The notes beneath the pieces were generated by a model that saw nothing but the letters and a program-made list of their open reading frames with translations, was not told the DNA's origin and made no database searches. A DNA stretch of 64,000 bases. It comes from a virus. Lineage: Duplodnaviria > Heunggongvirae > Uroviricota > Caudoviricetes. Below, piece after piece: positions 4,320 through 29,730 of the stretch (position 1 is the first letter of the stretch; each line of letters begins with the position of its first letter). Where the stretch lies: the IMG/VR virus record IMGVR_UViG_3300045972_000219, one strand, 5' to 3'. The position numbers were made by a program, and so were the translations under genes.

Positions 4320-4574
4320 ATGAGACACAGATTAACACAGATCATATTCAGAAGATCAACATCTCTTGAGTGGTATACTGCAAATACTATTTTAGATGAA
4401 CTTGAGATAGCAAGAGAAACTGATACTGATAAATTTAAAATTGGAGACGGTAAGACAGAATGGAACTACTTACCGTATTCAACTACTCTACCTGAAAAGA
4501 TTTATATGTATGCTGGATGTAAGGCACCTAGTAAACAAGAATATATCGATTTAGTTCAGAATTTCAATATATAG
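4320..4574 (+). CDS. hypothetical protein (84 aa)
   Basis: ORF track. A 29-aa hydrophobic mini-ORF (about 4234-4323) precedes it. Confidence 0.45.
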   Translation: MRHRLTQIIFRRSTSLEWYTANTILDELEIARETDTDKFKIGDGKTEWNYLPYSTTLPEKIYMYAGCKAPSKQEYIDLVQNFNI

Positions 4575-4594
4575 TATATTAAAAGGAGTTATTA

Positions 4595-4795
4595 ATGTTA
4601 AAGAAGATGTGGTTTATTGCATTTTGGTTAATCTTTAATATATCTGGATTATCAGGTATATTTATGGGGCTTAATTCACCTAGTACTATTAATGTTTTAA
4701 TGTCAGTTATCGCTATACTAACATTAGTTACAATTAATACACTAATCTATCGTGCAGTCAAAAACAAAAAGGAGAAATTGAATGAGAATGTTTAA
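4595..4795 (+). CDS. small membrane protein (66 aa, 2 TM)
   Basis: RBS AAAAGGAGTTATTAATG; two hydrophobic helices. Confidence 0.5.
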   Translation: MLKKMWFIAFWLIFNISGLSGIFMGLNSPSTINVLMSVIAILTLVTINTLIYRAVKNKKEKLNENV

Positions 4796-10763: not shown

Positions 10764-11036
10764 ATGGAAAAGACAGTGGACACTGGACTTAGATGCTTAA
10801 CACCGCTACAATTATCTCTTTTGTTTCATTATCATCACAAGCATGAGTGCTACGATAAAGATGATTTTATCGCAGTACTCGCACATGATGAAATGAGCGA
10901 TATGGGATTATTGGAATGTAAGGCTGGTCACTGGTTTAGTACTAAGCTTGGTACTGGACATGTAAGATTCATTTTGGGTATGTCTATTCAATTAGATAGA
11001 CGTGAAAAGTGCGTGAGGCGTAGAGGTTTGATTTAA
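10764..11036 (+). CDS. hypothetical protein (90 aa)
   Basis: ORF track. Confidence 0.4.
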   Translation: MEKTVDTGLRCLTPLQLSLLFHYHHKHECYDKDDFIAVLAHDEMSDMGLLECKAGHWFSTKLGTGHVRFILGMSIQLDRREKCVRRRGLI

Positions 11037-11044
11037 TGTATATT

Positions 11045-11119
11045 GGTAAGTAACTCAGTTGGCAGAGTCCTTGACTGTTAATCAAGTTGTCGCAGGTTCG
11101 AGCCCTGCCTTACCAGCCA
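11045..11119 (+). tRNA. tRNA-Asn (anticodon GTT)
   Basis: Cloverleaf folded by hand: acceptor TGGTAAG / CTTACCA; anticodon stem CTTGA / TCAAG with loop CTGTTAA; T-arm GCAGG-TTCGAGC-CCTGC; discriminator G; encoded CCA. Confidence 0.8.
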
Positions 11120-11812
11120 TACACTTTTCTAGCTGGACTGTATTCCCTTTGATAAGGATACATATAAACTGACTTCATATCCAAACATGAAGCATCCAGC
11201 TAGATCAAGTTTGAGATAGGTTGTATAGGGGTACGTCTACTACGCCCAGTAAGTGATATATGGAACTACGAGCCTCCTATGATCACCAGAGTAGACTACG
11301 GGACTGTGACAATTGGCGAGGTCACACGTAATAAACATGAAAGGTATGAGACGAAGGCTCTCTTCCCACATGGATCAGGCAAGCTAGAAAAAGGGTACGT
11401 ACTGAAGTAGTAGGGCATTGAGACGTGGTGCTTAGCGAGGATGAATAATCCCAGACGAGTAAACCGGATAACCGAGAAAGGTACTATAAGACTGTCTCTC
11501 TAGCAACGGATAGTAGATTTTGGTCAGCGGCAAGCAGTAGTTAGCTAAAAACTTATATCATTACACTTAACTATGCTTTAATATAAGATGCTAATGAAGT
11601 TAACGTGTACCTGAGAGTGAGCCGAAACTCTCCTTGAAAATTTTATGGAACCCGTCAAGTTTGTGCTTGGACTTTGGATTCTACCCTAGACCACGTTCGA
11701 GTCGTGGATACAACTATCTCACCGGTAATGCCAGTACTATCCTTACTACCGACAACTCCTTGTGCTGAAGGGTTGCTTGAAGAAATCGGAGATGGATAAT
11801 TAAATTAATGAG
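11120..11812 (+). ncRNA. candidate structured ncRNA region (about 690 nt ORF-free, GC-elevated)
   Basis: No ORF of 60 aa or more in any frame. GC is visibly higher than in flanking coding DNA. Long-range inverted repeats (for example CTAGCTGGA...TCCAGCTAG at 11128-11205). A tRNA-like T-arm CCACG-TTCGAGT-CGTGG lies at about 11691-11707. Confidence 0.3.
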
Positions 11813-12043
11813 GTGAATATGGGAGTTCCAATTAAGAACTATAATATGAAAAAAGTAGATGCTGAAATTGATAACTTCTGTCAAGATATCACTCCAGTCA
11901 AAGAAGGTGGAACAAAAATTACTGATTTCGAAGATTTAAAAATAGCTTTTCTTGAGTTAAATGAAAAACACAATAAATTAGCTATAGACTATACTAAATT
12001 AAAATCATCTATTCGTAATCAAATGCTAATAGCAAATATTTAA
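11813..12043 (+). CDS. hypothetical protein (76 aa)
   Basis: RBS GAGGTGAATATG. Confidence 0.45.
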   Translation: MNMGVPIKNYNMKKVDAEIDNFCQDITPVKEGGTKITDFEDLKIAFLELNEKHNKLAIDYTKLKSSIRNQMLIANI

Positions 12044-12055
12044 TGGAGGAAAAAA

Positions 12056-12175
12056 TGGATAGTGCAAGTTTCTTTAGTCACGATAATCAAGCATTGCTGA
12101 TTATTGTATTTGGACTAGTTATAGCTGGACTTGGAATTTTTATATACGATAAATTCTACAAGAAAGAAGACTAAT
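12056..12175 (+). CDS. small membrane protein (39 aa)
   Basis: RBS GGAGGAAAAAATG; single TM helix. Confidence 0.35.
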
Positions 12176-20762: not shown

Positions 20763-20799
20763 TACTACACTGGACTCAGTCAGTCCAGTGTAGTAATAA
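20763..20799 (+). promoter_or_regulatory. 16-bp perfect hairpin without U-tract (ATTACTACACTGGACT-CAGTC-AGTCCAGTGTAGTAAT)
   Basis: Perfect inverted repeat ending at the RBS of the next gene. It could be a processing or attenuation site. Confidence 0.4.
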
Positions 20800-21149
20800 T
20801 GAGGTATATTATGTTTTTACAAGAAATGTCAACAATAGGAGTATACGATAATCATAAGATTACTGTATATGAAGAACCATTTGCAAATCCTAGCTTTCAT
20901 GTAAGATATAAAGATGAGTGGGAAGTAATTCTGCAGATTAAAGACTTTGAAATTTTAGAAAAGAAATTTGGTAAGTATGAGAAAGGTACCCATCTACCAA
21001 AAAAAGAGATAAAAGAGTTAGTTAATTACCTTCAGCAAAATAATAAATTTCTTAAAAATAATACTAATTGGGAGTATTTAATTACAACATGGAATACAAA
21101 TAATCCTAGATATGAAGTTAGTATTGATTTCAAAATACCAATTCAATGA
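20799..21149 (+). CDS. hypothetical protein, paralog A of a duplicated 115-aa family
   Basis: About 55% identical to 23119..23466 (shared VGVYD.HK.TVYEE...NPSFH..YK.EWE..LQI.DF). Lies directly upstream of the tmRNA. Confidence 0.55.
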   Translation: MRYIMFLQEMSTIGVYDNHKITVYEEPFANPSFHVRYKDEWEVILQIKDFEILEKKFGKYEKGTHLPKKEIKELVNYLQQNNKFLKNNTNWEYLITTWNTNNPRYEVSIDFKIPIQ

Positions 21150-21152
21150 TTT

Positions 21153-21570
21153 GGGGGTGAACTAGTTTCGACGGGGGACTAATAGTTATAAACACGCTCA
21201 GAGGTTTCTCGTTGGCCTCTTTAAACTACGAGAACACAATTAATTGCCAACGCTATTAATGCAGTACGTAACTTCTTTGCAGCAGACAACTATGCCTTTG
21301 CAGGTGTAGCAGCTGCTTAAGAAGTAAAAATTCCTACAGCTTAATCGTAGGTGGGGTAGAGAGTAGAGAGCGACCTTGTAACTCTTCACCCATCAACAGA
21401 AGAAACAATTAGGAAGAAATTAGTTTGACTGATACTAATCAACAACAGTCTAGAGTCCAATCCGATTTGCCTTTTTGGGATACAGCTCGAAACACTAAAC
21501 AGGCTATGAGCGTACATGTTGTAATGAAAGGTTTTTCGGACCCGAGTGGCAGTACTCGGCACCTCCACCA
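21153..21570 (+). ncRNA. ssrA: tmRNA (SsrA-like transfer-messenger RNA), phage-encoded
   Basis: The 5' end GGGGGTGAACTAGTTTCGACGGGGG matches the tmRNA 5' consensus (E. coli GGGGCUGAUUCUGGAUUCGACGGG). The 3' end CACCTCC-A-CCA pairs with the 5' 7-mer and includes a G3:U70 wobble, the Ala identity element. TTTCGGAC precedes the T-arm as in E. coli. Internal tag ORF 21279-21320 GCAGCAGACAACTATGCCTTTGCAGGTGTAGCAGCTGCTTAA encodes AADNYAFAGVAAA-stop. The T-loop is non-canonical (CCGAG-TGGCAGTA-CTCGG). Confidence 0.7.
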
Positions 21571-22612
21571 AATTTAAGATAAGGGAAAACCTACTTGATA
21601 GGTAATGGTTAAATTGGACTCCGAGGGTTAATTTCTCTCTAGTAATACCAGTCCTACCTTATCTTAATCCTTCTATTCCTTCCACCACGGAGAAATCTAC
21701 ATCTCCACTAGATTGTAGAACGGTCTAAAAGCTTAATGTGAGTTTGATCACTCAACGAGAGCTTAATAGCATAGGGGTTCTGGAGGCTTTTATGCTGGCG
21801 GAAGGAAATCAATTTGGGCATCACTGACGAAAGCTGCTCTATCCGTTTTACTTTAAAGGTTTTGATGCATGCATCTTTATCTTTCTAAAGTAAAGCCTGA
21901 TAGAACCAGTTCGTAAACGCATGCCAAGTCAATGGGCTTATTAATTTAAGCCCATTGGCGGTACTAATTTGTCGGTAAGGGCTTAAGCCACCCTTACAAA
22001 TTCCGTGTCCTACCTCTCGATATAGGATTACGTTGGTATAGTGTTAACCTTGCCAGTAGCAAGCATTTAATGATCGTCTGATCTGAGGATGTAAGACTTG
22101 TGAATCGTGCTGGTTGAACTCGATAGGACTTAGCTCCGCTATACAAGGTTCAAGAGGAGAGATTACTTCAAACTATCTTGATAAATCGAATCGAAGAAGT
22201 CCAAGAGAGATATTCTCCTTGGCCTCAGTCTATAATTTATTATAGACAATCAGTCCCACTATCAACTATAGGTAGGGGAGTCATGCTAACTGACAACTGA
22301 TGAGCCTATTGCCGTTAGATAGAGAAAAGTGGAGGGACGAAAGACTATATGTCATTTATATCCCGTAGAAGCGCACCTAATTGTGGTTGACTATAAAAAC
22401 TTATCAGTAAATTCAAGTCAAGATAAGAAATCACAATACAATAGGTTAAGTCTCTAGGCAAGTTGGAGCTAGTCCAGACATAAAGATGTAGAGCGACTTA
22501 GGACTCTACAAGCTATTCGAGAAAGAGATGCTATCGGATAGAAGTCATGAATACTTAAGGGGGTATGGCCGTATACCCATCATCTCCGGCCAATAAATTA
22601 TAGGAGACCATA
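21571..22612 (+). ncRNA. candidate large structured ncRNA (about 1040 nt ORF-free, GC-elevated) directly 3' of the tmRNA
   Basis: No ORF of 60 aa or more in six frames. GC is higher than in flanking coding DNA. Many local hairpins. Ends at the RBS of ORF 22613. Confidence 0.3.
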
Positions 22613-22816
22613 ATGGTTAGAATTCTTCCAATAGGGACTAGAGTTAAAATCATTATGAACTTATATAATAGTGATGAGACTCATATAGTTGTAGAGAAAG
22701 GTACATTAGCAACTGTCATTGATAACGTGGAAGATGAAGGAATTAATGTCCATGTTGATGACACAGTATTCACTAATATGGCTTTATGTGATTGGGAGTA
22801 TGAGGTTATACAATGA
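22613..22816 (+). CDS. hypothetical protein (67 aa)
   Basis: RBS TAGGAGACCATAATG. Confidence 0.45.
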   Translation: MVRILPIGTRVKIIMNLYNSDETHIVVEKGTLATVIDNVEDEGINVHVDDTVFTNMALCDWEYEVIQ

Positions 22817-23118: not shown

Positions 23119-23466
23119 ATGGTACAGCCAATATTTCTAACAGAAATGGCTACTGTAGGTGTATACGATAGTCATAAAGTAACAGTGTACGAAGAAACTT
23201 TAGGTAATCCATCATTTCATATCAAATATAAAAATGAATGGGAAATAGTATTGCAAATCAGAGACTTTGTAATTTTAGAAGTTAAACATGGTAATTTTAA
23301 AAAAGGTGATAAATTTCCTAGAAAAGAATATAAGGATCTAATTAAATTTCTCAATTCTAATGATGAGGATCTAAATATTAGTAATTGGAAATATTTAATT
23401 GATGCATGGAATAGAAATAATCCTAAATATAAAATATCTACAAGCACACAACTACCAATTTATTAA
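23119..23466 (+). CDS. hypothetical protein, paralog B of the 115-aa family
   Basis: See 20799..21149. RBS AAAGGAAAATTTATG. Confidence 0.55.
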   Translation: MVQPIFLTEMATVGVYDSHKVTVYEETLGNPSFHIKYKNEWEIVLQIRDFVILEVKHGNFKKGDKFPRKEYKDLIKFLNSNDEDLNISNWKYLIDAWNRNNPKYKISTSTQLPIY

Positions 23467-23508: not shown

Positions 23509-24027
23509 GTGGCTGTAAAAATTAGTGGAGGAAATATGGGAAGTAAACTAACATGGAATGTTAAAATCCTTCCAAAGATTGTTGAAAAGTCATTTTCAGT
23601 TGATTCAGTTCTAAAACAATTAGATCTTAAATTAACTGGAGGAAATAGAGAAACTGTTAAGCGTTACATTAATTCTATGAATCTAGATACATCTCATTTT
23701 ACAGGTCAAGGACATCGTAAGGGTATAGTCGGTCAGCCTTTATATATTGGGATGACACTAGATGAAATAATGATAAGAGATAGCACCTACACTAATACTC
23801 ACAGACTAAAGCTTCGCATGATCAAAGAAGGTCTACGTGATCATAAATGTGAGAAGTGTGGTTTAAATGAATGGGTAGGAAAACCTATACCACTTGAGTT
23901 ACATCATAAAAATGATATAAGAAATGATCATCGTAATAAAAATATCGAATTAATATGCCCTAATTGTCATGCACTCACAGATAATTACAGAGCTAAAAAT
24001 ATAGATATTAAATATAGATCAGCTTAA
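23509..24027 (+). CDS. HNH endonuclease (free-standing homing-endonuclease-like)
   Basis: CEKCG...ELHHKNDIRNDHRNKNIELICPNCH is a canonical HNH motif with a zinc-finger cysteine pair. Likely start at the internal ATG (about 23536) with RBS GGAGGAAATATG. Confidence 0.75.
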   Translation: MAVKISGGNMGSKLTWNVKILPKIVEKSFSVDSVLKQLDLKLTGGNRETVKRYINSMNLDTSHFTGQGHRKGIVGQPLYIGMTLDEIMIRDSTYTNTHRLKLRMIKEGLRDHKCEKCGLNEWVGKPIPLELHHKNDIRNDHRNKNIELICPNCHALTDNYRAKNIDIKYRSA

Positions 24028-24031
24028 TATC

Positions 24032-24116
24032 GCTTGTGTGGTGGAATTGGTATACACAAGGCACTTAAAATGCCTCGGCTTTAGCCATAGCAGTTCGAGT
24101 CTGCTCACAAGCACCA
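24032..24116 (+). tRNA. tRNA-Leu (anticodon TAA), class II
   Basis: Acceptor GCTTGTG / CACAAGC; anticodon stem AGGCA / TGCCT with loop CTTAAAA; variable arm about 13 nt; T-arm AGCAG-TTCGAGT-CTGCT; encoded CCA. Starts 5 nt after the HNH stop. Confidence 0.75.
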
Positions 24117-24133
24117 ATTAAAAGGAGGTTCTA

Positions 24134-24328
24134 ATGCAACCACATCAAGAAAGAGTAGTTCAAGAGAAAGAGGAACTTGATAAAAAAGCTAATGCATTAA
24201 GTGATTTTATAGGGAATAGTCCAATTTTCGAAACAATTGATCCTGAAGAACAAGAACGACTTAAAGAACAAAATGATATCATGTGGCAATACTCTGAAGT
24301 ACTTGGTAAGCGTATTGCAGCTTTCTAA
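24134..24328 (+). CDS. hypothetical protein (64 aa)
   Basis: RBS AAAAGGAGGTTCTAATG. Confidence 0.5.
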   Translation: MQPHQERVVQEKEELDKKANALSDFIGNSPIFETIDPEEQERLKEQNDIMWQYSEVLGKRIAAF

Positions 24329-24329
24329 T

Positions 24330-24895
24330 GTAATCTAAAAACAGCCTATAAGATTCTTAGGGACGGTTAAGCCACGTAGGATACAGTCTCATGAACTGTA
24401 CTCTGAAGGGATAACTCCATGATTACAGTAGATGTTTACCACTACTTGCCAGATAAACAATAGGTTATTGCAACGTATTGCTGGAGAGGTAATAAGCTAA
24501 CTAGATAGGTCTATGCATGGATGCTATCTAGTGACGTCGAAATAAGAAGGTTATTCTAGATAGTCCTTCTTAGCGGTAAACACTTTAAACAAATTAATGT
24601 GTGGGTGACAAGCGGAATTGTTTAAACGTCTCTTCAGAGCAAGGAGAGGCCCACACATTTAATATGAAAGATTGATCTTGATATCCAACTTCTAACGGTA
24701 CAATTCCGTTGATGGTACCAATAAGGCAATGTATTAGACTGCAATCTAATCGAAGCCAAATGGTTGCCCTTGCAGGGGAGAAGTGTGAAAGAGAGAATTA
24801 GTTGCGGGAGACAATCTGCGGACTGTCAAACAGATGCATTTTCTATGACACGGAAGTGTGGATATCAAGATGAATGTTCCATATAAAAGGAGAAA
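24330..24895 (+). ncRNA. candidate structured ncRNA region (about 570 nt ORF-free)
   Basis: No ORF on the plus strand. GC-elevated. Only an overlapping minus-strand ORF (24746..25033), which is probably spurious. Confidence 0.25.
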
Positions 24896-24899
24896 TGTT

Positions 24900-25001
24900 A
24901 TGAAGTGTGGAATAACTAAAGAGAAGATGTATTGCATTACATGTAAACAAGTAGTAGATGGAACAAGTGGTATTTGTCCTAATTGTGGAGCAGCTATATA
25001 A
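24900..25001 (+). CDS. zinc-ribbon mini-protein (33 aa, MKCGITKEKMYCITCKQVVDGTSGICPNCGAAI)
   Basis: Strong RBS AAAAGGAGAAATGTTATG. CxxC...CxxC motif. Embedded between two ORF-free regions. Confidence 0.4.
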   Translation: MKCGITKEKMYCITCKQVVDGTSGICPNCGAAI

Positions 25002-25029
25002 AACCGTATTTGAATATTACGAATATTCT

Positions 25030-26183
25030 TCAATAAAAAATTATTAACATAAAATTACATAACTCAGATTGACCCATGAGTACGGTTTTCTTTCGGGAAG
25101 ACAGTGCAATAATGGGGTGTCATGGGGGGGCAGGTTTCATGTCCTCGTTGGAGGTAAACCAACGGAAGAATAACTCTAGTAATAGAGATAAAAGATTTCT
25201 ATGATCCATAAGTAGAGTCTGGTGAGAAATATGCTATCCATTGTGAATGCACTCACTTCAATTGAAAACCATTAATACACAATATTCTTGGGCGGAGGAA
25301 ACCCTAAAGGCTTCCAAAGAGAATATTACTTGGTATGAAGGTCGCATACTGAGTTGAGTCGAAAGACAATAGAATGTATTAATGCTTGTAATGTGCAATG
25401 GACTAGTCATCCGGAGTGCGTACATGAGTTATCGGTTATCCCTATTGCGTTTGCCAAAGCGCACCTAGATTGGCATCTAGGTCAAGAAATTGGTGGGAAA
25501 TGACTAAATACAGTAAGTATCCTTGACAGGAGAAAACAGAAGGGTGACGCATCTAAACTACTCAAAAGGTAGCATGATGACAACGTCAACCTCATCCTTC
25601 ATCAAACGACTAATGGATAAATTCTATTATAATCATTGGATCTGAAATCCAAACTATATGAGATGATATCTATAAAAGCAAAAGTGTTGACGGCATTTGA
25701 ACTAAAATGAACTTATTCCTCTGTAATATGGGGATATCTGAAAGTACCGCAAGGAAATCAGATAAGAAGAAACGAGTAACATTGACCTAACAGGTGGGAA
25801 CCTGTGAACTCTGCCAAGAGAGGATGTGTGAAAGAAGTAATCTATACAGTCAGATGCAGAAGAGTTGCAAGACTCTAAAACTTGTGTTCATGGATGCTAC
25901 TATCTTGAAAGGGATAGTGTGTAAAGAGTTTCGAAAGAAATTTTAACGTATCCATTACGGGTCAATTTACTCAGCCCAACAATTAATAATCGCCTTATTC
26001 CCCTCCATAGGAATAAGGCGATTTATTAAATCTCCTTTCCACCGTAGATTAATGGGAGATGAGCACTCATGTAGAGCATGCTACCTTTATGGTCACAATG
26101 CATGTACTAAGTCTGGCAATCTCGATGTGATCCCGACTCTCGCTCACAAGTGGATGGACATCCACTATAAATAACGTCTAAAT
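25030..26183 (+). ncRNA. candidate large structured ncRNA (about 1150 nt ORF-free, GC-elevated) ending at a terminator
   Basis: No ORF in any frame. GC is markedly above the genome average. Ends with an intrinsic terminator at 26184-26230. Confidence 0.3.
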
Positions 26184-26230
26184 TAACCCTTATTCCTTAA
26201 TTGGAAAAAGGGTTAATTTTTTTTTTTTAC
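26184..26230 (+). terminator. rho-independent terminator (TTAACCCTTATTCC-TTAATT-GGAAAAAGGGTTAA plus T11)
   Basis: Hairpin with the same CC-TTAATT-GG loop as the terminators at 16354 and 26975, followed by 11 T. Confidence 0.75.
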
Positions 26231-26308
26231 CGCATTATTAAATAATATATATGTATATTAATATAGTATAAGAAGTTCAAATTCGATGTATAAAAAAAGG
26301 AGAAACAA

Positions 26309-26971
26309 ATGAAAACGACAGTATGGATGATCATTCTAATTATTATGATTGGACTGATGGGATGTAAGACTGAGGACAAGTTTTCAGGAAAGTACGGTTC
26401 TAGTGATGTCGCACTAACGATTGAGAAGAATGAGAATGTTAAAGATGAATACAAATTCACATTTTCAGGCAGTCCGATGTTTGGTGAGTTTGATGTACTT
26501 GTCAATGTGAAAACAGATGGAACTGCACATTACGTTATGAAAGATCATTACATAATTGACAGTGGAAAAGAGACTAAGAATAAATGTGAACTTGATATCA
26601 AGTTCTTCAATGACACAGTAACAATAAAAGAAGAGCCATGCGGTATATACACAGTTGATGGTGTATATAAAAAAGAAAACGTCCAATCATCAAATGCTCA
26701 GACAGCGAATACAGTTAAACCAGTAGCTAAAACAGAAGCTCCAAAGAGCACTGAAGTTGAACAGAAGATCATATTTCAAACCAACAGTATACAGTATGAT
26801 AAATCTGTATACAATCCAGCAGTAGAGTGTAACAGAGAGTGTAACAAAGTATCCGAAAAAGTAGTAGATTATACATCACAAGGATGGAAAGTAGTTTCTT
26901 CAGTACCACGTACGCAAGCAGTTGCTACATGGTGTAAATGTGACGGAGTTGAGTATATAGTATCGAAATGA
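26309..26971 (+). CDS. secreted lipoprotein (220 aa)
   Basis: Signal peptide with lipobox LMGC. RBS AAAAAGGAGAAACAAATG. Last gene of the plus-strand arm. Confidence 0.55.
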   Translation: MKTTVWMIILIIMIGLMGCKTEDKFSGKYGSSDVALTIEKNENVKDEYKFTFSGSPMFGEFDVLVNVKTDGTAHYVMKDHYIIDSGKETKNKCELDIKFFNDTVTIKEEPCGIYTVDGVYKKENVQSSNAQTANTVKPVAKTEAPKSTEVEQKIIFQTNSIQYDKSVYNPAVECNRECNKVSEKVVDYTSQGWKVVSSVPRTQAVATWCKCDGVEYIVSK

Positions 26972-26974
26972 AAA

Positions 26975-27017
26975 TAACCCTCATTCCTTAATTGGAATGA
27001 GGGTTATTTTTTTTTTA
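26975..27017. terminator. bidirectional intrinsic terminator at the convergence of the plus and minus arms
   Basis: ATAACCCTCATTCC-TTAATT-GGAATGAGGGTTAT is a 14-bp stem flanked by AAAA on the left and T9 on the right. The stop codon of minus-strand ORF 27015..27266 lies in the T-run. Confidence 0.7.
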
Positions 27018-27266
27018 GATTTTAGTATGACATCCCTTACACATTGTTGGACCAGATGTTTTAGCATGACATCCTTTACACTCTTTATGAGCATAATTCT
27101 TTCCAATACCATCAATTTTACCAACTCTTAGTATATGGCATGCGTTACATTTATTAGCTGTTGCGTGTGTTGTATGATTAAAACTAACATCTTTACCCAA
27201 CTTAATAATCTCTGATGCATATACTGATTGGCTAACGAGTACAATCATTAAAATTAAAATCTTCAT
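27015..27266 (-). CDS. triheme cytochrome c7-family protein (PpcA-like periplasmic c-type cytochrome)
   Basis: Signal peptide MKILILMIVLVSQSVYASE. Three CxxCH haem-binding motifs (CNACH, CKGCH, CKGCH) in a mature domain of about 66 aa. From memory, the motif spacing aligns with Geobacter PpcA (V.F.H..H...C..CH...GKI.G.GK..AH..CKGCH....GPT.C..CH.K). Confidence 0.7.
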   Translation of the reverse strand: MKILILMIVLVSQSVYASEIIKLGKDVSFNHTTHATANKCNACHILRVGKIDGIGKNYAHKECKGCHAKTSGPTMCKGCHTKI

Positions 27267-27436: not shown

Positions 27437-28138
27437 TTACCCCTTGATGTATCTAATAAAGCCTACTACTTGAAACGTCTTACCTATATCCAGTTTTCTA
27501 GTCCTTCGATAAACTCCGTCTCCTTCTCTTTGACTTCCTTTAGCTCCTGGACCTGTGTTACCTTCTATGTCGTCAAATTCATTTTTAGCTATTTGCCTTT
27601 CAATAGTTCCACCATGTCCAGCAAAATTACCAGTAGCTTCCCCATGTGCCCAAATAGCTATATCTCCTAAGGCTAAGTTTTCTATACCAAGAAATACTCT
27701 ATTGGCAGGAATAACTTTATATGCAAATGGATTCTTTTGGCAGGCTTTATATAATAGACTAGCTCTAGCTAACTTAGGAAATACATCTGGTTGCTTTGTT
27801 TTCTCTGCAGCTATATGATAATTATAGAGAGCAAAAGCCACACAGTACGGATTTCCTTTAGGAAGTCCTACATATCTAAGAAATGTTTCTACTTCTGGTC
27901 CATCGTTATTACCTGTTTTTTCTTGTGTTCCGATATATTTTCTAGCATTTCCAACTGCTATTTCTTGAAGAGTAGTAACTCTTTTAGGTTCTTCTTTTTT
28001 AACTATAGCAGTTGGTATATGACAGTCAATACATTTAGCTATTGACAGTGATGGAAATAGAGCAAGCGAGAATAAACATACCAAGATATACTGCAGCGGC
28101 AATATTCCCTTCAACAAAGATCTCTCTAAGAACGTCAT
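27437..28138 (-). CDS. secreted CHAP/NlpC-P60-like cysteine peptidase (putative cell-wall hydrolase or endolysin) with N-terminal CxxCH motif
   Basis: N-terminal hydrophobic signal or anchor, then KCIDCH (CxxCH). Catalytic-type Cys in GNPYCVAFALYNYH and His in AIWAHGEATGNFAGHGGTIE at CHAP-like spacing. Confidence 0.5.
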   Translation of the reverse strand: MTFLERSLLKGILPLQYILVCLFSLALFPSLSIAKCIDCHIPTAIVKKEEPKRVTTLQEIAVGNARKYIGTQEKTGNNDGPEVETFLRYVGLPKGNPYCVAFALYNYHIAAEKTKQPDVFPKLARASLLYKACQKNPFAYKVIPANRVFLGIENLALGDIAIWAHGEATGNFAGHGGTIERQIAKNEFDDIEGNTGPGAKGSQREGDGVYRRTRKLDIGKTFQVVGFIRYIKG

Positions 28139-28430
28139 ATTTAGTACCCCTAGTGAATTTAATTATAGCAAATGAGGCAATAACTAAAAGTGTTAAATTA
28201 ATAAATTTAGTTGTAACAATTTGAAGATTACTACCAGACAATACTTGAGCAAAATAACCTAACACTCCAGCTATAATAATTGTAATAATAACTAAATATT
28301 TCTCATCAAATCCAATACGTTTTAACTTACTCATCTTTTTCTCTGGCTCTGGTGTAGTTTCAAATCCTACTGTTTTTTCTTCACTCATCTTTTTCTCCTT
28401 ATTTAAGTGGGATAATAACCTTATCGACAT
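28035..28430 (-). CDS. membrane protein (131 aa, 3 TM), possible holin-like partner of the downstream peptidase
   Basis: Three hydrophobic helices. Located immediately upstream of the peptidase gene in the transcription direction. Confidence 0.45.
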   Translation of the reverse strand: MSIRLLSHLNKEKKMSEEKTVGFETTPEPEKKMSKLKRIGFDEKYLVIITIIIAGVLGYFAQVLSGSNLQIVTTKFINLTLLVIASFAIIKFTRGTKYDVLREIFVEGNIAAAVYLGMFILACSISITVNS

Positions 28431-29730
28431 CGATTTTAGTTACTTTAATAGTCATGTCATGACGTTTCTTTAGGTTAGCATTGAGTAATGATGCAGATAG
28501 TCTTGAACAAAGTAGACCTACATTATCGATTCCCATTCTATAGTACAATTCACCTGCACATTTACTACAAATATGCTCTGTTGTACAATATAGGGGTGAT
28601 CGTAACATAACTGTTTTATCTACGTATTTGGGTAGATTCTCAGCATCTAGCAATACTAGTTTATTCTTATCTACTACATATCGTAGATAATAGTCTTTTT
28701 TGTTCTTGTCTGTGATTTTAGCAGTGTAACCTTTTTTAGTCTTACAATCTGTGCCAGGTTTATCAAGAACAACAGACTGGAAGGAAGCATTCATCTTCTT
28801 TGTTTCATAACCACCTATCTGAGTACCTACAGCAGATGAGAATGAGGCAGTAGTAATCATATCAGCATAGATATCAGTCTCATCTTTTTGAATACCTTCA
28901 GTTAAGTTACTTGTAGATAACTGAAGATTGTTTTCATCATCAGATTTTTGAGACATACCACGCATAATAGCTACGTTCTTATAGGTATTTTCGTATGATC
29001 CACCCTTATAACCAGAGTCATATAGATCAAGACCACCAGCATCAGTCCTATCTAGTTCAGTTCTAGCTAAATCAAGAAGTTCTTTTTCGATCTTCTGAAC
29101 TGTAGATGCATCTAGTTTACCTACATATTTCTTTAATAGTTCTTCTTTTCTTTTCTTTACAGCTGGAAAAGAGAGAATACTATTATAGTCATATGAACCT
29201 GAAGTGAATGCAACAGTGCCATAACTAATCCAAGCTATACGATCTAAATGATTAATAAATTCTTCAGATGTTATCTTTTCCTCTAATAGGAGAACTGATA
29301 AATCACTATTTAATTTACCTAGAGTACTACTATTGAATGGAGAATTATAGTACGGCATTTTAGATCTAATATTTTCACTTCCACCTAATACAAATAGATT
29401 TATTATATATCTACCAACAGTAGTTAATACTTCACCATTAAATCCTAAAGCCCATGCAGGAGTTAGATTAGGTTTAGGATTACCTGATTTAGTTACTACT
29501 TCTTTACTAAAAGAAAACTCAGCATGAGATTCTATACGTGGTGGTTCATCTTTTTTATTAGCTACATTTGTCTTAAGCCAGTCCATAGTAATGTCATCTG
29601 GCTGAAGGCTTAGAAGTTCGTTTACGAGGGTTGGACTTAATTTGCTTCTCTTTAACATCACTACTCCTTTCTTGAAAGACAAATAGAAATGCAAGACCAG
29701 CCACAGATAGAAAGTGGGTAGCAAATCCAA
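28399..29730 (-). CDS. hypothetical protein (about 420-443 aa) with C-terminal Cys cluster
   Basis: Track ORF begins with a non-ATG start. The likelier start is the internal ATG near 29657 (MLKRSKLS...). The C-terminus has CTTEHICSKCAG...C. Confidence 0.55.
   Translation of the reverse strand: MDLLPTFYLWLVLHFYLSFKKGVVMLKRSKLSPTLVNELLSLQPDDITMDWLKTNVANKKDEPPRIESHAEFSFSKEVVTKSGNPKPNLTPAWALGFNGEVLTTVGRYIINLFVLGGSENIRSKMPYYNSPFNSSTLGKLNSDLSVLLLEEKITSEEFINHLDRIAWISYGTVAFTSGSYDYNSILSFPAVKKRKEELLKKYVGKLDASTVQKIEKELLDLARTELDRTDAGGLDLYDSGYKGGSYENTYKNVAIMRGMSQKSDDENNLQLSTSNLTEGIQKDETDIYADMITTASFSSAVGTQIGGYETKKMNASFQSVVLDKPGTDCKTKKGYTAKITDKNKKDYYLRYVVDKNKLVLLDAENLPKYVDKTVMLRSPLYCTTEHICSKCAGELYYRMGIDNVGLLCSRLSASLLNANLKKRHDMTIKVTKIDVDKVIIPLK

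What the first reader, a model, noticed from the sequence alone, without database searches (positions are those of the whole stretch)
25030..26230. Second large ORF-free GC-rich block (about 1.15 kb) ending in a strong terminator, preceded by a 33-aa zinc-ribbon mini-gene
Between the mini-ORF at 24900..25001 and the terminator at 26184-26230 there is no ORF in any frame. GC is far above the genome background. The terminator shares the CC-TTAATT-GG loop of other terminators in this phage, which implies a discrete transcription unit whose product is RNA.
Basis: partly seen in the sequence, partly recalled or inferred. Interest (0 to 1): 0.65.

Follow-up and report, generated by a model that had tools for sequence, protein, structure and literature searches.

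The report
GOLLD giant RNA gene in phage
The gene-free stretch is a divergent copy of GOLLD, a known ~850-base phage RNA that self-assembles into hollow RNA cages and whose function is unknown, so it is a real RNA gene but not a new kind of one.

Summary
Window 25055-26229 has no stop-free run of 80 or more codons in any frame. It ends in a strong intrinsic terminator (26180-26228) and follows a 33-aa CxxC...CxxC mini-ORF. GC is raised only modestly (38.1% against 33.0%, about +2 sd), not "far above" background.

The block is a full-length GOLLD-family RNA gene on the + strand, about 25125-25977 (853 nt).
- **3' domain (25539-25977):** matches Rfam RF02032 over the whole model (80.6 bits, E 1e-20). 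This is below Rfam's 150-bit gathering score, so default annotation misses it.
- **5' domain (25125-25538):** starts with the GOLLD 5'-terminal two-hairpin motif. A covariance model built only from relatives finds it once in the 64 kb (E 1.6e-6), at the canonical spacing of about 410 nt.

Ten viral-contig relatives score 70-118 bits, and pairing and covariation exceed the controls. The host is a jumbo phage whose one tested RNA-polymerase subunit is closest to AR9/PBS1 phages. The RNA lies in an island with a tmRNA and tRNAs.

This is a new, divergent member of a known family. Cage assembly and function are inferred, not tested. Interest is modest.

The parts
24900..25001 (+). 33-aa CxxC...CxxC (zinc-ribbon-like) mini-ORF upstream of the RNA. 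Alternative starts are at 24858 (GTG) and 24870 (ATG). It is probably a separate small gene and not part of GOLLD.
   Evidence: ORF list. An AAAGGAG Shine-Dalgarno-like sequence lies upstream. Only sub-threshold Pfam zinc-ribbon hits were found (DZR 18.7 bits against a cut-off of 27.3). No comparable mini-ORF lies within 2.5 kb of GOLLD in 16 other loci.
25046..25057 (+). Candidate promoter: AACA-TAAAAT-TA, matching the AR9 late-promoter consensus AACA-(6N)-TA/G. The start site would be 25057. This is weak and inferred.
   Evidence: The consensus comes from PMC5312081. The motif is enriched about 2.5-fold in + strand intergenic DNA but not on the - strand half of the window, so support is weak.
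25125..25538 (+). GOLLD 5' domain (414 nt). It contains hairpin 1 at 25128-25144 (GGGCA-GGUUUCA-UGUCC), an extra hairpin at 25146-25165, AAUAA, a GNRA hairpin at 25173-25186 (CUCUA-GUAA-UAGAG) and AUAAAAG. Further blocks are shared with relatives (GAAAACCA, and AGUAAGUAUCCUUGACAGGAGAAAACA at the 3' edge).
   Evidence: CM R1, built from 7 relatives without the window, hits 25125-25200 at 31.3 bits and E 1.6e-6; the next best hit has E 0.66. R1 also hits canonical GOLLD loci about 403 nt upstream of their 3' domains. The alignment is A1, and covarying hairpins are shown. The fold z-score is -2.26 for 25060-25538, a stretch that starts 65 nt upstream of the domain.
25539..25977 (+). GOLLD 3' domain (439 nt). 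The first hairpin spans 25539-25600 and carries the UCAAAAG loop. An AU-rich linker at 25601-25692 ends with AAAGCAAAAGU (25675-25685). The multi-helix core and 3' hairpins end in CUCAGCC.
   Evidence: Rfam RF02032 model positions 1-416 of 416, 80.6 bits, E 1.1e-20, against a gathering score of 150. A relatives-only nhmmer profile gives E 1e-36. 75 of 98 model pairs are canonical and all 15 helices are represented. Covariation is counted on A2.
25983..26029 (+). Long hairpin 6 nt after the GOLLD 3' end. Its arms resemble the phage's terminator stems (CCUUAUUCC...GGAAUAAGG), and it is followed by UUAUUAAAU. It is probably a first, leaky terminator or a 3'-end-protecting hairpin.
   Evidence: Fold of 25978-26235 gives z -6.1. 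The terminator scan lists the same stem, but on the - strand only; reading it as a + strand terminator rests on the fold and the sequence.
26030..26183 (+). Unassigned spacer between the two hairpins. No family match, no significant structure and no convincing ORF.
   Evidence: Fold z -0.74. No Rfam hit of note at E<=10. The 40-aa ORF at 26052-26174 has no Pfam hit and no Shine-Dalgarno sequence.
26180..26228 (+). Strong intrinsic terminator that closes the unit: AAAUUAACCCUU-AUUCCUUAAUUGGAAA-AAGGGUUAAUUU plus a U-run.
   Evidence: It shares the TTCCTTAATTGGAA core with the terminator at 26970-27011.

Best explanation
[quoted passage not shown] It is carried by a jumbo phage whose one tested RNA-polymerase subunit is closest to AR9/PBS1 phages. 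It lies inside a + strand RNA-gene island that also holds a tmRNA, a tRNA-Leu and, further upstream, tRNA-Asn and a second tRNA-Leu.

Shown here: both GOLLD domains are present at the canonical spacing. These are a roughly 414-nt 5' domain starting with the family's two-hairpin motif, and a roughly 439-nt conserved 3' domain. The helices are kept by compensatory changes across relatives. The gene is co-oriented with its neighbours and is followed by a hairpin and a strong terminator.

Inferred from published work on other GOLLDs (PMC12286853, PMC12990946): the transcript folds into two separate domains and self-assembles, without protein, into a closed dihedral homo-oligomer of 10-14 copies. 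This is a hollow nanocage with the AU-rich linker (here 25601-25692, with no tRNA insert) facing inwards. It accumulates during lytic growth.

What the cage does is unknown for the whole family. Published suggestions include holding tRNAs, ribosomes or other cargo. Its position here, beside translation-related RNAs, fits a role linked to phage translation.
For: 1. Rfam cmscan matches 25539-25977 on the + strand to RF02032 over model positions 1-416 of 416, at 80.6 bits and E 1.1e-20.
2. Ten viral-contig relatives with sequence-similar 3' domains were found. Nine of them give full- or near-full-length GOLLD matches of 70-118 bits, E 5e-16 to 2e-30; the tenth, L024, was scanned at E<=0.001 and no GOLLD match was listed. 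A profile built from relatives without the window finds 25542-25975 with E 1e-36.
3. The Rfam structure threaded on the window gives 75 canonical, 14 non-canonical and 9 deleted pairs out of 98. All 15 helices are represented.
4. On a 13-sequence MAFFT alignment that includes two canonical GOLLDs (288 and 292 bits), 65.9% of cells pair, against 35-49% when partners are slid. The covariation score is 0.391 against at most 0.202, and 0 of 500 shuffles reach it.
5. CM R1, built from the 5' motif of 7 relatives only, hits the window once, at 25125-25200 (E 1.6e-6), 414 nt upstream of the 3' domain. The same model hits canonical GOLLD loci L043, L076, L041 and L005 about 403 nt upstream of their 3' domains. 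The motif is also visible at the 5' end of the cryo-EM construct env-38.
6. The context is typical of the family. The element is in a phage with a tmRNA and tRNAs nearby. Relatives also have tmRNAs next to GOLLD, tRNAs flanking it or tRNAs inside its linker.
7. The 853-nt RNA folds better than shuffles (z -3.47).
Against: - The Rfam score (80.6 bits) is well below the curated gathering score (150). The gathering-mode scan therefore reports nothing.
- A sequence-only profile of three canonical GOLLDs does not detect the window, which is about 41% identical to them.
- Several helices pair poorly on the MAFFT alignment (25-40% of cells). This may reflect misalignment or real structural differences.
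- There are no close relatives, so there is no covariation specific to this sequence's 5' domain beyond two hairpins.
- Expression, RNA ends, oligomerisation and function were not and cannot be tested here.
- The residues that form the intermolecular bridges could not be mapped. The env-38 sequence recovered from the PDF text is 816 nt rather than 833 nt.
Confidence: 0.88

Rival explanations
1. It belongs to a sister clade that shares ancestry and overall fold with GOLLD. That clade has diverged enough to assemble differently (a different copy number or no cage) or to do something different from canonical GOLLD.
For: The window and every relative that gave a GOLLD match score 70-118 bits, below the 150-bit gathering score, while canonical loci score 184-292. 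Identity to canonical 3' domains is about 41%. The window has a shortened hairpin at 25717-25734 and missing pairs in three helices. Published GOLLDs already differ in copy number (10, 12 or 14) according to which helices they carry (PMC12990946).
Against: The match covers the full model. All 15 helices and the invariant sequence blocks (UCAAAAG, AAAGCAAAAGU, CGCAAG, GUGUG, CUCAG) are retained. The 5' motif is the same and sits at the same spacing as in canonical GOLLDs. The genomic context is the same.
Confidence: 0.08
2. It is a decaying, no longer functional GOLLD remnant carried passively by the phage.
For: It has the second-lowest Rfam score of the scored set (80.6 bits; L039 scores 70). 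14 pairs are non-canonical and 9 are deleted. No close relatives are available to show purifying selection.
Against: Both domains are complete and correctly spaced. The invariant blocks are intact. The terminal helices are fully canonical at 9/9, 6/6, 8/8 and 3/3 pairs. The fold is significantly stable. Terminators follow. Phage genomes rarely keep about 1 kb of dead sequence.
Confidence: 0.03
3. It is a degenerate protein-coding gene, or a long 5' leader or regulatory region for the downstream lipoprotein-like gene (26309-26971).
For: Small ORFs of up to 55 aa exist in the block. The block lies upstream of a + strand gene.
Against: No protein-family similarity was found for any small ORF. Homology to relatives follows RNA helices with compensatory changes. 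A strong terminator separates the block from the downstream gene. In relatives the element is flanked by tRNAs and ribozymes, not by this gene.
Confidence: 0.01

Closest known systems
GOLLD RNA (Rfam RF02032); structurally characterised examples are env-38 (833 nt, 14-mer, PDB 9MEE) and Streptococcus agalactiae GOLLD (700 nt, 12-mer, PDB 9L0R)
   Same: It has the two-domain architecture, with a variable 5' domain of about 410 nt and a conserved 3' domain of about 430 nt. It shares the 5'-terminal hairpin-AAUAA-GNRA hairpin-AUAAAG motif, the UCAAAAG loop, the AAAGCAAAAGU junction, the CGCAAG loops and the CUCAGCC 3' end. It has an AU-rich linker after the first 3'-domain hairpin. It is in a phage near tRNA and tmRNA genes.
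   Different: It scores 80.6 bits, below Rfam's 150-bit threshold. Its 3' domain is about 41% identical to those of canonical viral-contig GOLLDs. It has an extra hairpin between the first two 5' hairpins, one shortened hairpin and a few missing pairs. It is not embedded in a tRNA array and has no tRNA in the linker. Its host phage resembles AR9/PBS1 jumbo phages in the one RNA-polymerase subunit tested.
Sub-threshold GOLLD clade in large viral contigs (L069/L086, L053, L056, L114, L036, L039, L055, L117, L024)
   Same: The 3' domains are similar in sequence at 46-56% identity, and Rfam scores are 70-118 bits for the nine members that gave a GOLLD match (L024 gave none). They share the 5' motif and several 5'-domain blocks. 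The contigs are mostly 80-550 kb.
   Different: None is close to the window: the best are L086 at 56.2% and L069 at 55.6%. Most relatives have tRNAs directly flanking the RNA or inside its linker. L086 and L069 have a Pistol ribozyme 3' of the RNA, and L024 has a hammerhead-like element just 3' of it. The window instead has a hairpin, a spacer and a terminator.
ROOL RNA (a large phage-associated RNA that also forms cages)
   Same: It is a large ornate RNA of phages and prophages, often near tRNAs, that forms a homo-oligomeric nanocage (PMC5737381, PMC12286853).
   Different: Its sequence and fold are unrelated. No ROOL match appears in 24100-26400 at E<=10.

Membership tests
GOLLD RNA (RF02032) | Statistically significant, full-length match of the conserved 3' domain to the family covariance model | tested here: met
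   25539-25977 on the + strand, model positions 1-416 of 416, 80.6 bits, E 1.1e-20.
GOLLD RNA (RF02032) | Score at or above Rfam's curated gathering score of 150 bits. This is an operational annotation cut-off, not a biological feature. | tested here: not met
   80.6 bits, so the element is absent from the gathering-mode scan. Every relative that gave a GOLLD match also falls below it (70-118 bits), while canonical loci score 184-292. I treat this as divergence within the family, because every structural and sequence feature below is met.
GOLLD RNA (RF02032) | The 3'-domain helices are present and maintained by compensatory change | tested here: met
   All 15 model helices are represented and 75 of 98 pairs are canonical in the window. 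On a 13-sequence alignment, 65.9% of cells pair against 35-49% when slid. 60 pairs show double changes, and the covariation score is 0.391 against at most 0.202. Five helices pair poorly on the MAFFT alignment.
GOLLD RNA (RF02032) | Invariant sequence blocks of the 3' domain (UCAAAAG loop, AAAGCAAAAGU junction, CGCAAG loop, GUGUG, 3' CUCAG) | tested here: met
   These are invariant columns of alignment A2, which includes the window and two canonical GOLLDs.
GOLLD RNA (RF02032) | A separate 5' domain of about 400 nt that begins with the conserved terminal hairpins | tested here: met
   The relatives-only CM R1 hits 25125-25200 (E 1.6e-6), 414 nt before the 3' domain. It hits canonical GOLLD loci about 403 nt before theirs. 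The motif is seen at nt 3-48 of env-38. The internal 5' helices were not resolved.
GOLLD RNA (RF02032) | Variable, unstructured linker after the first 3'-domain hairpin, sometimes carrying a tRNA | tested here: met
   The AU-rich stretch 25601-25692 aligns to the variable-length region. L036 and L039 carry tRNA sequence there and the window does not.
GOLLD RNA (RF02032) | Phage or prophage location, commonly near tRNA genes | tested here: met
   Phage RNA polymerase subunit and virion proteins are present. A tRNA-Leu lies 1 kb upstream, a tmRNA 3.5 kb upstream, and two more tRNAs are in the window.
GOLLD RNA (RF02032) | Protein-free assembly into a closed dihedral homo-oligomer (nanocage), with conserved intermolecular bridges | not testable with these tools
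   This needs cryo-EM or mass photometry. Mapping of bridge residues was abandoned because the env-38 sequence recovered from the supplement text is 816 nt rather than 833 nt.
GOLLD RNA (RF02032) | Expressed as a discrete RNA that rises during lytic growth | not testable with these tools
   No transcript data exist for this uncultured phage. Only strand, hairpin and terminator support a transcription unit.
ROOL RNA, group I/II introns and other large Rfam RNAs | Match to the family covariance model | tested here: not met
   No such family appears in 24100-26400 at E<=10, or in the whole window at gathering score.

The most novel reading that the evidence does not exclude
The window's RNA and its ten or so relatives may form a distinct GOLLD lineage of large and jumbo phages that standard Rfam annotation misses; every member that gave a GOLLD match scores 70-118 bits. 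This lineage has its own variations: an extra 5' hairpin, a shortened 3' hairpin, and self-cleaving ribozymes or terminator hairpins rather than tRNAs at the 3' end. It could therefore build a cage of different copy number or cargo. In this phage the RNA would be made by the phage's own multisubunit RNA polymerase, as part of a tmRNA/tRNA/GOLLD island. The neighbouring ORF-free stretches (24329-24860, 21571-22812, 11120-12124) might encode further, undescribed large RNAs.
Probability: 0.2. Interest if true: 0.55.

Novelty: new member of a known kind. Interest (0 to 1): 0.33.

Why it matters
GOLLD is one of the largest structured bacterial and phage RNAs. It forms RNA-only nanocages, and its function is still unknown.

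This example adds a divergent, full-length member in a jumbo phage whose tested RNA-polymerase subunit is closest to AR9/PBS1 phages. Here the RNA sits with a tmRNA and tRNAs rather than inside a tRNA array. That strengthens the link between GOLLD and phage-encoded translation-related RNAs.

It also shows that a whole clade of GOLLDs in large phages falls below Rfam's gathering score. GOLLD is therefore probably under-annotated in viral metagenomes.

It does not by itself make GOLLD's function testable, because the phage is uncultured and has no close relatives in the collections searched.

Tried and rejected
- **GenBank phages:** blastn of 24330-26300 against GenBank phage records found no match.
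- **Close relatives of the phage:** a search via its RNA polymerase subunit in viral contigs found none.
- **Exact-word searches:** an exact 32-mer from the window's 5' domain found nothing in viral or genome contigs. An exact 26-mer shared with L069 and L086 only recovered that same lake-phage clade, in both viral contigs and metagenomes.
- **5' domain by sequence alone:** an nhmmer profile of the relatives' 5' regions found nothing in the window. A small covariance model was needed.
- **Canonical-only profile:** a sequence profile of three canonical GOLLDs does not detect the window.
- **Ribozyme in the 3' flank:** I looked for a self-cleaving ribozyme like the Pistol ribozymes in L086 and L069. 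There is no Rfam hit at E<=10, and 26030-26183 is not significantly structured.
- **Zinc-ribbon partner protein:** I tested whether the mini-ORF is a conserved GOLLD partner. It is absent near GOLLD in 16 other loci.
- **AR9-type late promoter:** I tested the AACA-N6-TA motif as a promoter signal. Enrichment is weak and confined to one strand, so it remains only a candidate.
- **Quaternary contacts:** I tried to map published env-38 bridge residues onto the window. The sequence extracted from the supplement text is 17 nt short, so residue numbers are unreliable.
- **Pseudogene hypothesis:** no Pfam similarity was found for any small ORF.

Full report
**1. The observation**

The window is AT-rich (33.0% GC) and phage-like. 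All genes up to about 27000 are on the + strand, and the orientation then switches.

A six-frame scan shows that 25055-26229 (1175 nt) has no stop-free run of 80 or more codons. The longest run inside the reported block is 75 codons, and the longest start-to-stop ORF is 55 aa. Nine small ORFs in the block give no Pfam match that reaches a family cut-off; the one listed hit is noise.

The block's GC is 38.05%. That is about +2 sd for 1.2-kb windows, at the 96th percentile. It is raised, but not "far above" background.

The terminator is real. A stem of 12 or more base pairs spans 26180-26219 and is followed by a T-run. Its TTCCTTAATTGGAA core is repeated exactly in the next + strand terminator at 26984. 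The motif occurs seven times with up to 2 mismatches, against 1.44 expected.

The 33-aa CxxC...CxxC mini-ORF at 24900-25001 has a Shine-Dalgarno-like AAAGGAG, but only sub-threshold zinc-ribbon matches.

**2. What it is: the 3' domain**

Rfam at its gathering thresholds reports only a tmRNA (21153-21570) and three tRNAs in the window.

With E-value reporting, 25539-25977 on the + strand matches GOLLD (RF02032) over the complete model (positions 1-416 of 416). The score is 80.6 bits with E 1.1e-20, below the curated gathering score of 150.

A GOLLD-motif pattern search of viral contigs, followed by iterative nhmmer, found ten loci with sequence-similar 3' domains.
- Nine of the ten give full- or near-full-length GOLLD matches of 70-118 bits, all below the gathering score. 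The tenth, L024, gave no GOLLD match at E<=0.001.
- Canonical GOLLDs in the same set score 184-292 bits.
- A profile built from the relatives without the window finds 25542-25975 with E 1e-36.
- A three-sequence profile of canonical GOLLDs finds nothing, because identity to them is only about 41%.

The window therefore belongs to a divergent GOLLD clade. That clade is recognisable only with structure-aware models or through intermediate sequences.

**3. Structure of the 3' domain**

I threaded the Rfam consensus structure onto the window sequence.
- All 15 model helices are represented.
- Of 98 pairs, 75 are canonical, 14 are non-canonical and 9 are deleted.
- The closing helix (9/9), the 25892-25953 helix (6/6), its inner hairpin (8/8) and the 3'-terminal hairpin (3/3) are fully canonical.

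I then projected the structure onto a 13-sequence MAFFT alignment that includes two canonical GOLLDs.

| Measure | Observed | Control |
|---|---|---|
| Cells forming standard pairs | 65.9% | 35-49% with partners slid 1-3 columns |
| Pairs with changes on both sides | 60 | 31-42 with partners slid 1-3 columns |
| Covariation score | 0.391 | at most 0.202 |
| Shuffles reaching the observed covariation score or paired % | 0 of 500 | n/a |

Five helices pair poorly on this alignment, which is not structure-aware. That is a limitation.

The invariant columns are the known GOLLD blocks: UCAAAAG, AAAGCAAAAGU, CGCAAG, GUGUG and CUCAG.

**4. The 5' domain**

GOLLDs have a less conserved 5' domain (PMC12286853). 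Sequence profiles of the relatives' upstream regions did not find the window.

Alignment did show shared blocks and two covarying hairpins. I built a 55-position covariance model (R1) from seven relatives only. It covers hairpin 1, a spacer, AAUAA, a GNRA-loop hairpin and AUAAAG.

With filters off, R1 finds exactly one significant site in the 64-kb window. This is 25125-25200 on the + strand, at 31.3 bits and E 1.6e-6. The next best hit has E 0.66. The site lies 414 nt upstream of the 3' domain.

The same model hits the canonical GOLLD loci L043, L076, L041 and L005 about 403 nt upstream of their 3' domains. The motif is also readable at the very 5' end of the env-38 GOLLD used for cryo-EM, as GGCC-GCUAU-GGUC, AAUAA, AUAC-GAAA-GUAG, GAUAAAG (Supplementary Table 4 of PMC12286853).

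The gene is therefore about 25125-25977, or 853 nt, compared with 833 nt for env-38. It has a 5' domain of 414 nt and a 3' domain of 439 nt. The whole RNA folds better than shuffled sequences (z -3.47).

**5. Flanks and transcription unit**

- **Hairpin after the 3' end.** Six nt after the GOLLD 3' end, a long hairpin (25983-26029) has arms resembling the phage's terminator stems. It is followed by a U-rich, interrupted tract. The terminator scan lists this stem on the - strand only.
- **Spacer.** 26030-26183 has no family match and no significant structure (z -0.74).
- **Terminator.** The strong terminator comes next, at 26180-26228.
- **Possible promoter.** At 25046-25057, AACA-TAAAAT-TA fits the AR9 late-promoter consensus AACA-(6N)-TA/G (PMC5312081). 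Motif enrichment in this window is weak, so this is only a candidate.
- **Mini-ORF.** It is not found near GOLLD in 16 other loci, so it is not a conserved partner.

**6. Context**

The phage encodes a multisubunit RNA polymerase subunit that is about 41% identical to those of the Bacillus jumbo phages AR9 and PBS1. It also encodes jumbo-phage virion proteins.

GOLLD lies 1 kb downstream of tRNA-Leu(UAA) and an HNH endonuclease gene, and 3.5 kb downstream of a tmRNA.

In the relatives and in the canonical loci:
- tmRNAs lie next to GOLLD in L039, L043 and L076.
- tRNAs flank it directly in L053, L056 and L114.
- tRNA sequence sits inside the linker in L036 and L039.
- Pistol ribozymes follow it in L086 and L069.

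This is the published GOLLD context (PMC5737381, PMC12286853, PMC12990946).

**7. How it most likely works**

Shown here: this is a homologous, complete, two-domain GOLLD gene, co-oriented with its neighbours and followed by terminators.

Inferred from solved GOLLDs: the RNA self-assembles, without protein, into a closed dihedral homo-oligomer of 10-14 copies. The 5' domains form the caps, the 3' domains form the rings, and the AU-rich linker faces the interior. The RNA rises during lytic growth.

The biological role is unknown for the whole family. Holding or protecting tRNAs, or interacting with ribosomes, have been proposed. I could not check the bridge-forming residues, because the env-38 sequence recovered from the supplement text is 17 nt short.

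**8. Rivals**

- A functionally diverged sister clade is possible (about 0.08).
- A dead remnant is unlikely, given intact domains, conserved blocks and terminators (about 0.03).
- A pseudogene or cis-regulatory leader is effectively excluded.

**9. Verdict**

The element is a new, divergent member of a known family. GOLLD is already known from large phages such as the phiCbK-like Caulobacter phages listed in the alignment of PMC12286853.

Interest is modest. The useful points are that a whole clade of large-phage GOLLDs falls below Rfam's threshold, and that this one sits in a tmRNA/tRNA island of a jumbo phage with its own RNA polymerase.

Noticed in passing
window 21571-22812: This is the 'first' ORF-free block. 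It is 1.24 kb at 38.8% GC and lies directly 3' of the tmRNA (21153-21570). It has no Rfam match at E<=1, no similarity to the GOLLD profile and no hit by R1. It may be another, undescribed large RNA.
   Followed up: partly
window 11034-12124: A third ORF-free stretch of 1.09 kb begins with tRNA-Asn and lies in the most GC-rich part of the window (up to 44% in a 500-nt window). Rfam finds only the flanking tRNAs at E<=1.
   Followed up: partly
window 24329-24860: A 530-nt ORF-free, 40% GC stretch lies between a crAss001_48-family gene (24134-24328, PF21825) and the zinc-ribbon mini-ORF. It folds somewhat better than shuffles (z -2.57). No Rfam match and no homologue were found.
   Followed up: partly
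window 27015-27266 (-) and 27437-28138 (-): An 83-aa secreted protein carries three CxxCH haem motifs and matches Class III cytochrome c (PF02085, 23.3 bits, just above the cut-off). The neighbouring 233-aa protein carries a CIDCH motif and matches phage endolysin families. A multihaem cytochrome in a phage is unusual and hints at the host's physiology.
   Followed up: partly
window 20799-21149 and 23119-23466: Two paralogous 115/116-aa ORFs give weak DUF4160 matches. Each sits just upstream of an RNA-gene block: the tmRNA block, and the block holding the HNH gene, tRNA-Leu and GOLLD.
   Followed up: no
L086:3451-3512 (-), L069:4605-4666 (+), L024:6991-7072 (-): Pistol self-cleaving ribozymes (55-56 bits, above the gathering score) lie 3' of the GOLLD gene in two relatives, 5 nt away in L086. 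A hammerhead-like (RAGATH-1) match of 50.4 bits, below its 56.3-bit gathering score, lies 3' of a third. This suggests ribozyme-mediated 3'-end processing of GOLLD transcripts in this clade.
   Followed up: no
L039:10969-11041 and L036 (linker region of 4326-4785): tRNA sequence is embedded in the GOLLD linker of two relatives. In L053, L056 and L114 a tRNA ends about 25-35 nt before the GOLLD 5' hairpin.
   Followed up: partly
window 26193, 26984, 13531, 11826, 16363, 60039, 61892: A family of terminator hairpins shares the TTCCTTAATTGGAA loop region, with 7 copies against 1.44 expected by chance. The hairpin at 25983-26029 has related arms.
   Followed up: partly
window 23509-24116: A free-standing HNH endonuclease gene (phrog_10822, E 4e-42) ends a few bases before tRNA-Leu(UAA) at 24032-24116.
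   Followed up: no
window 28399-29730 (-): A phage multisubunit RNA polymerase beta-type subunit is about 41% identical to those of the Bacillus phages AR9 and PBS1, and 36-40% identical to Staphylococcus and Listeria jumbo phages. No close relative exists in the viral-contig collection.
   Followed up: partly
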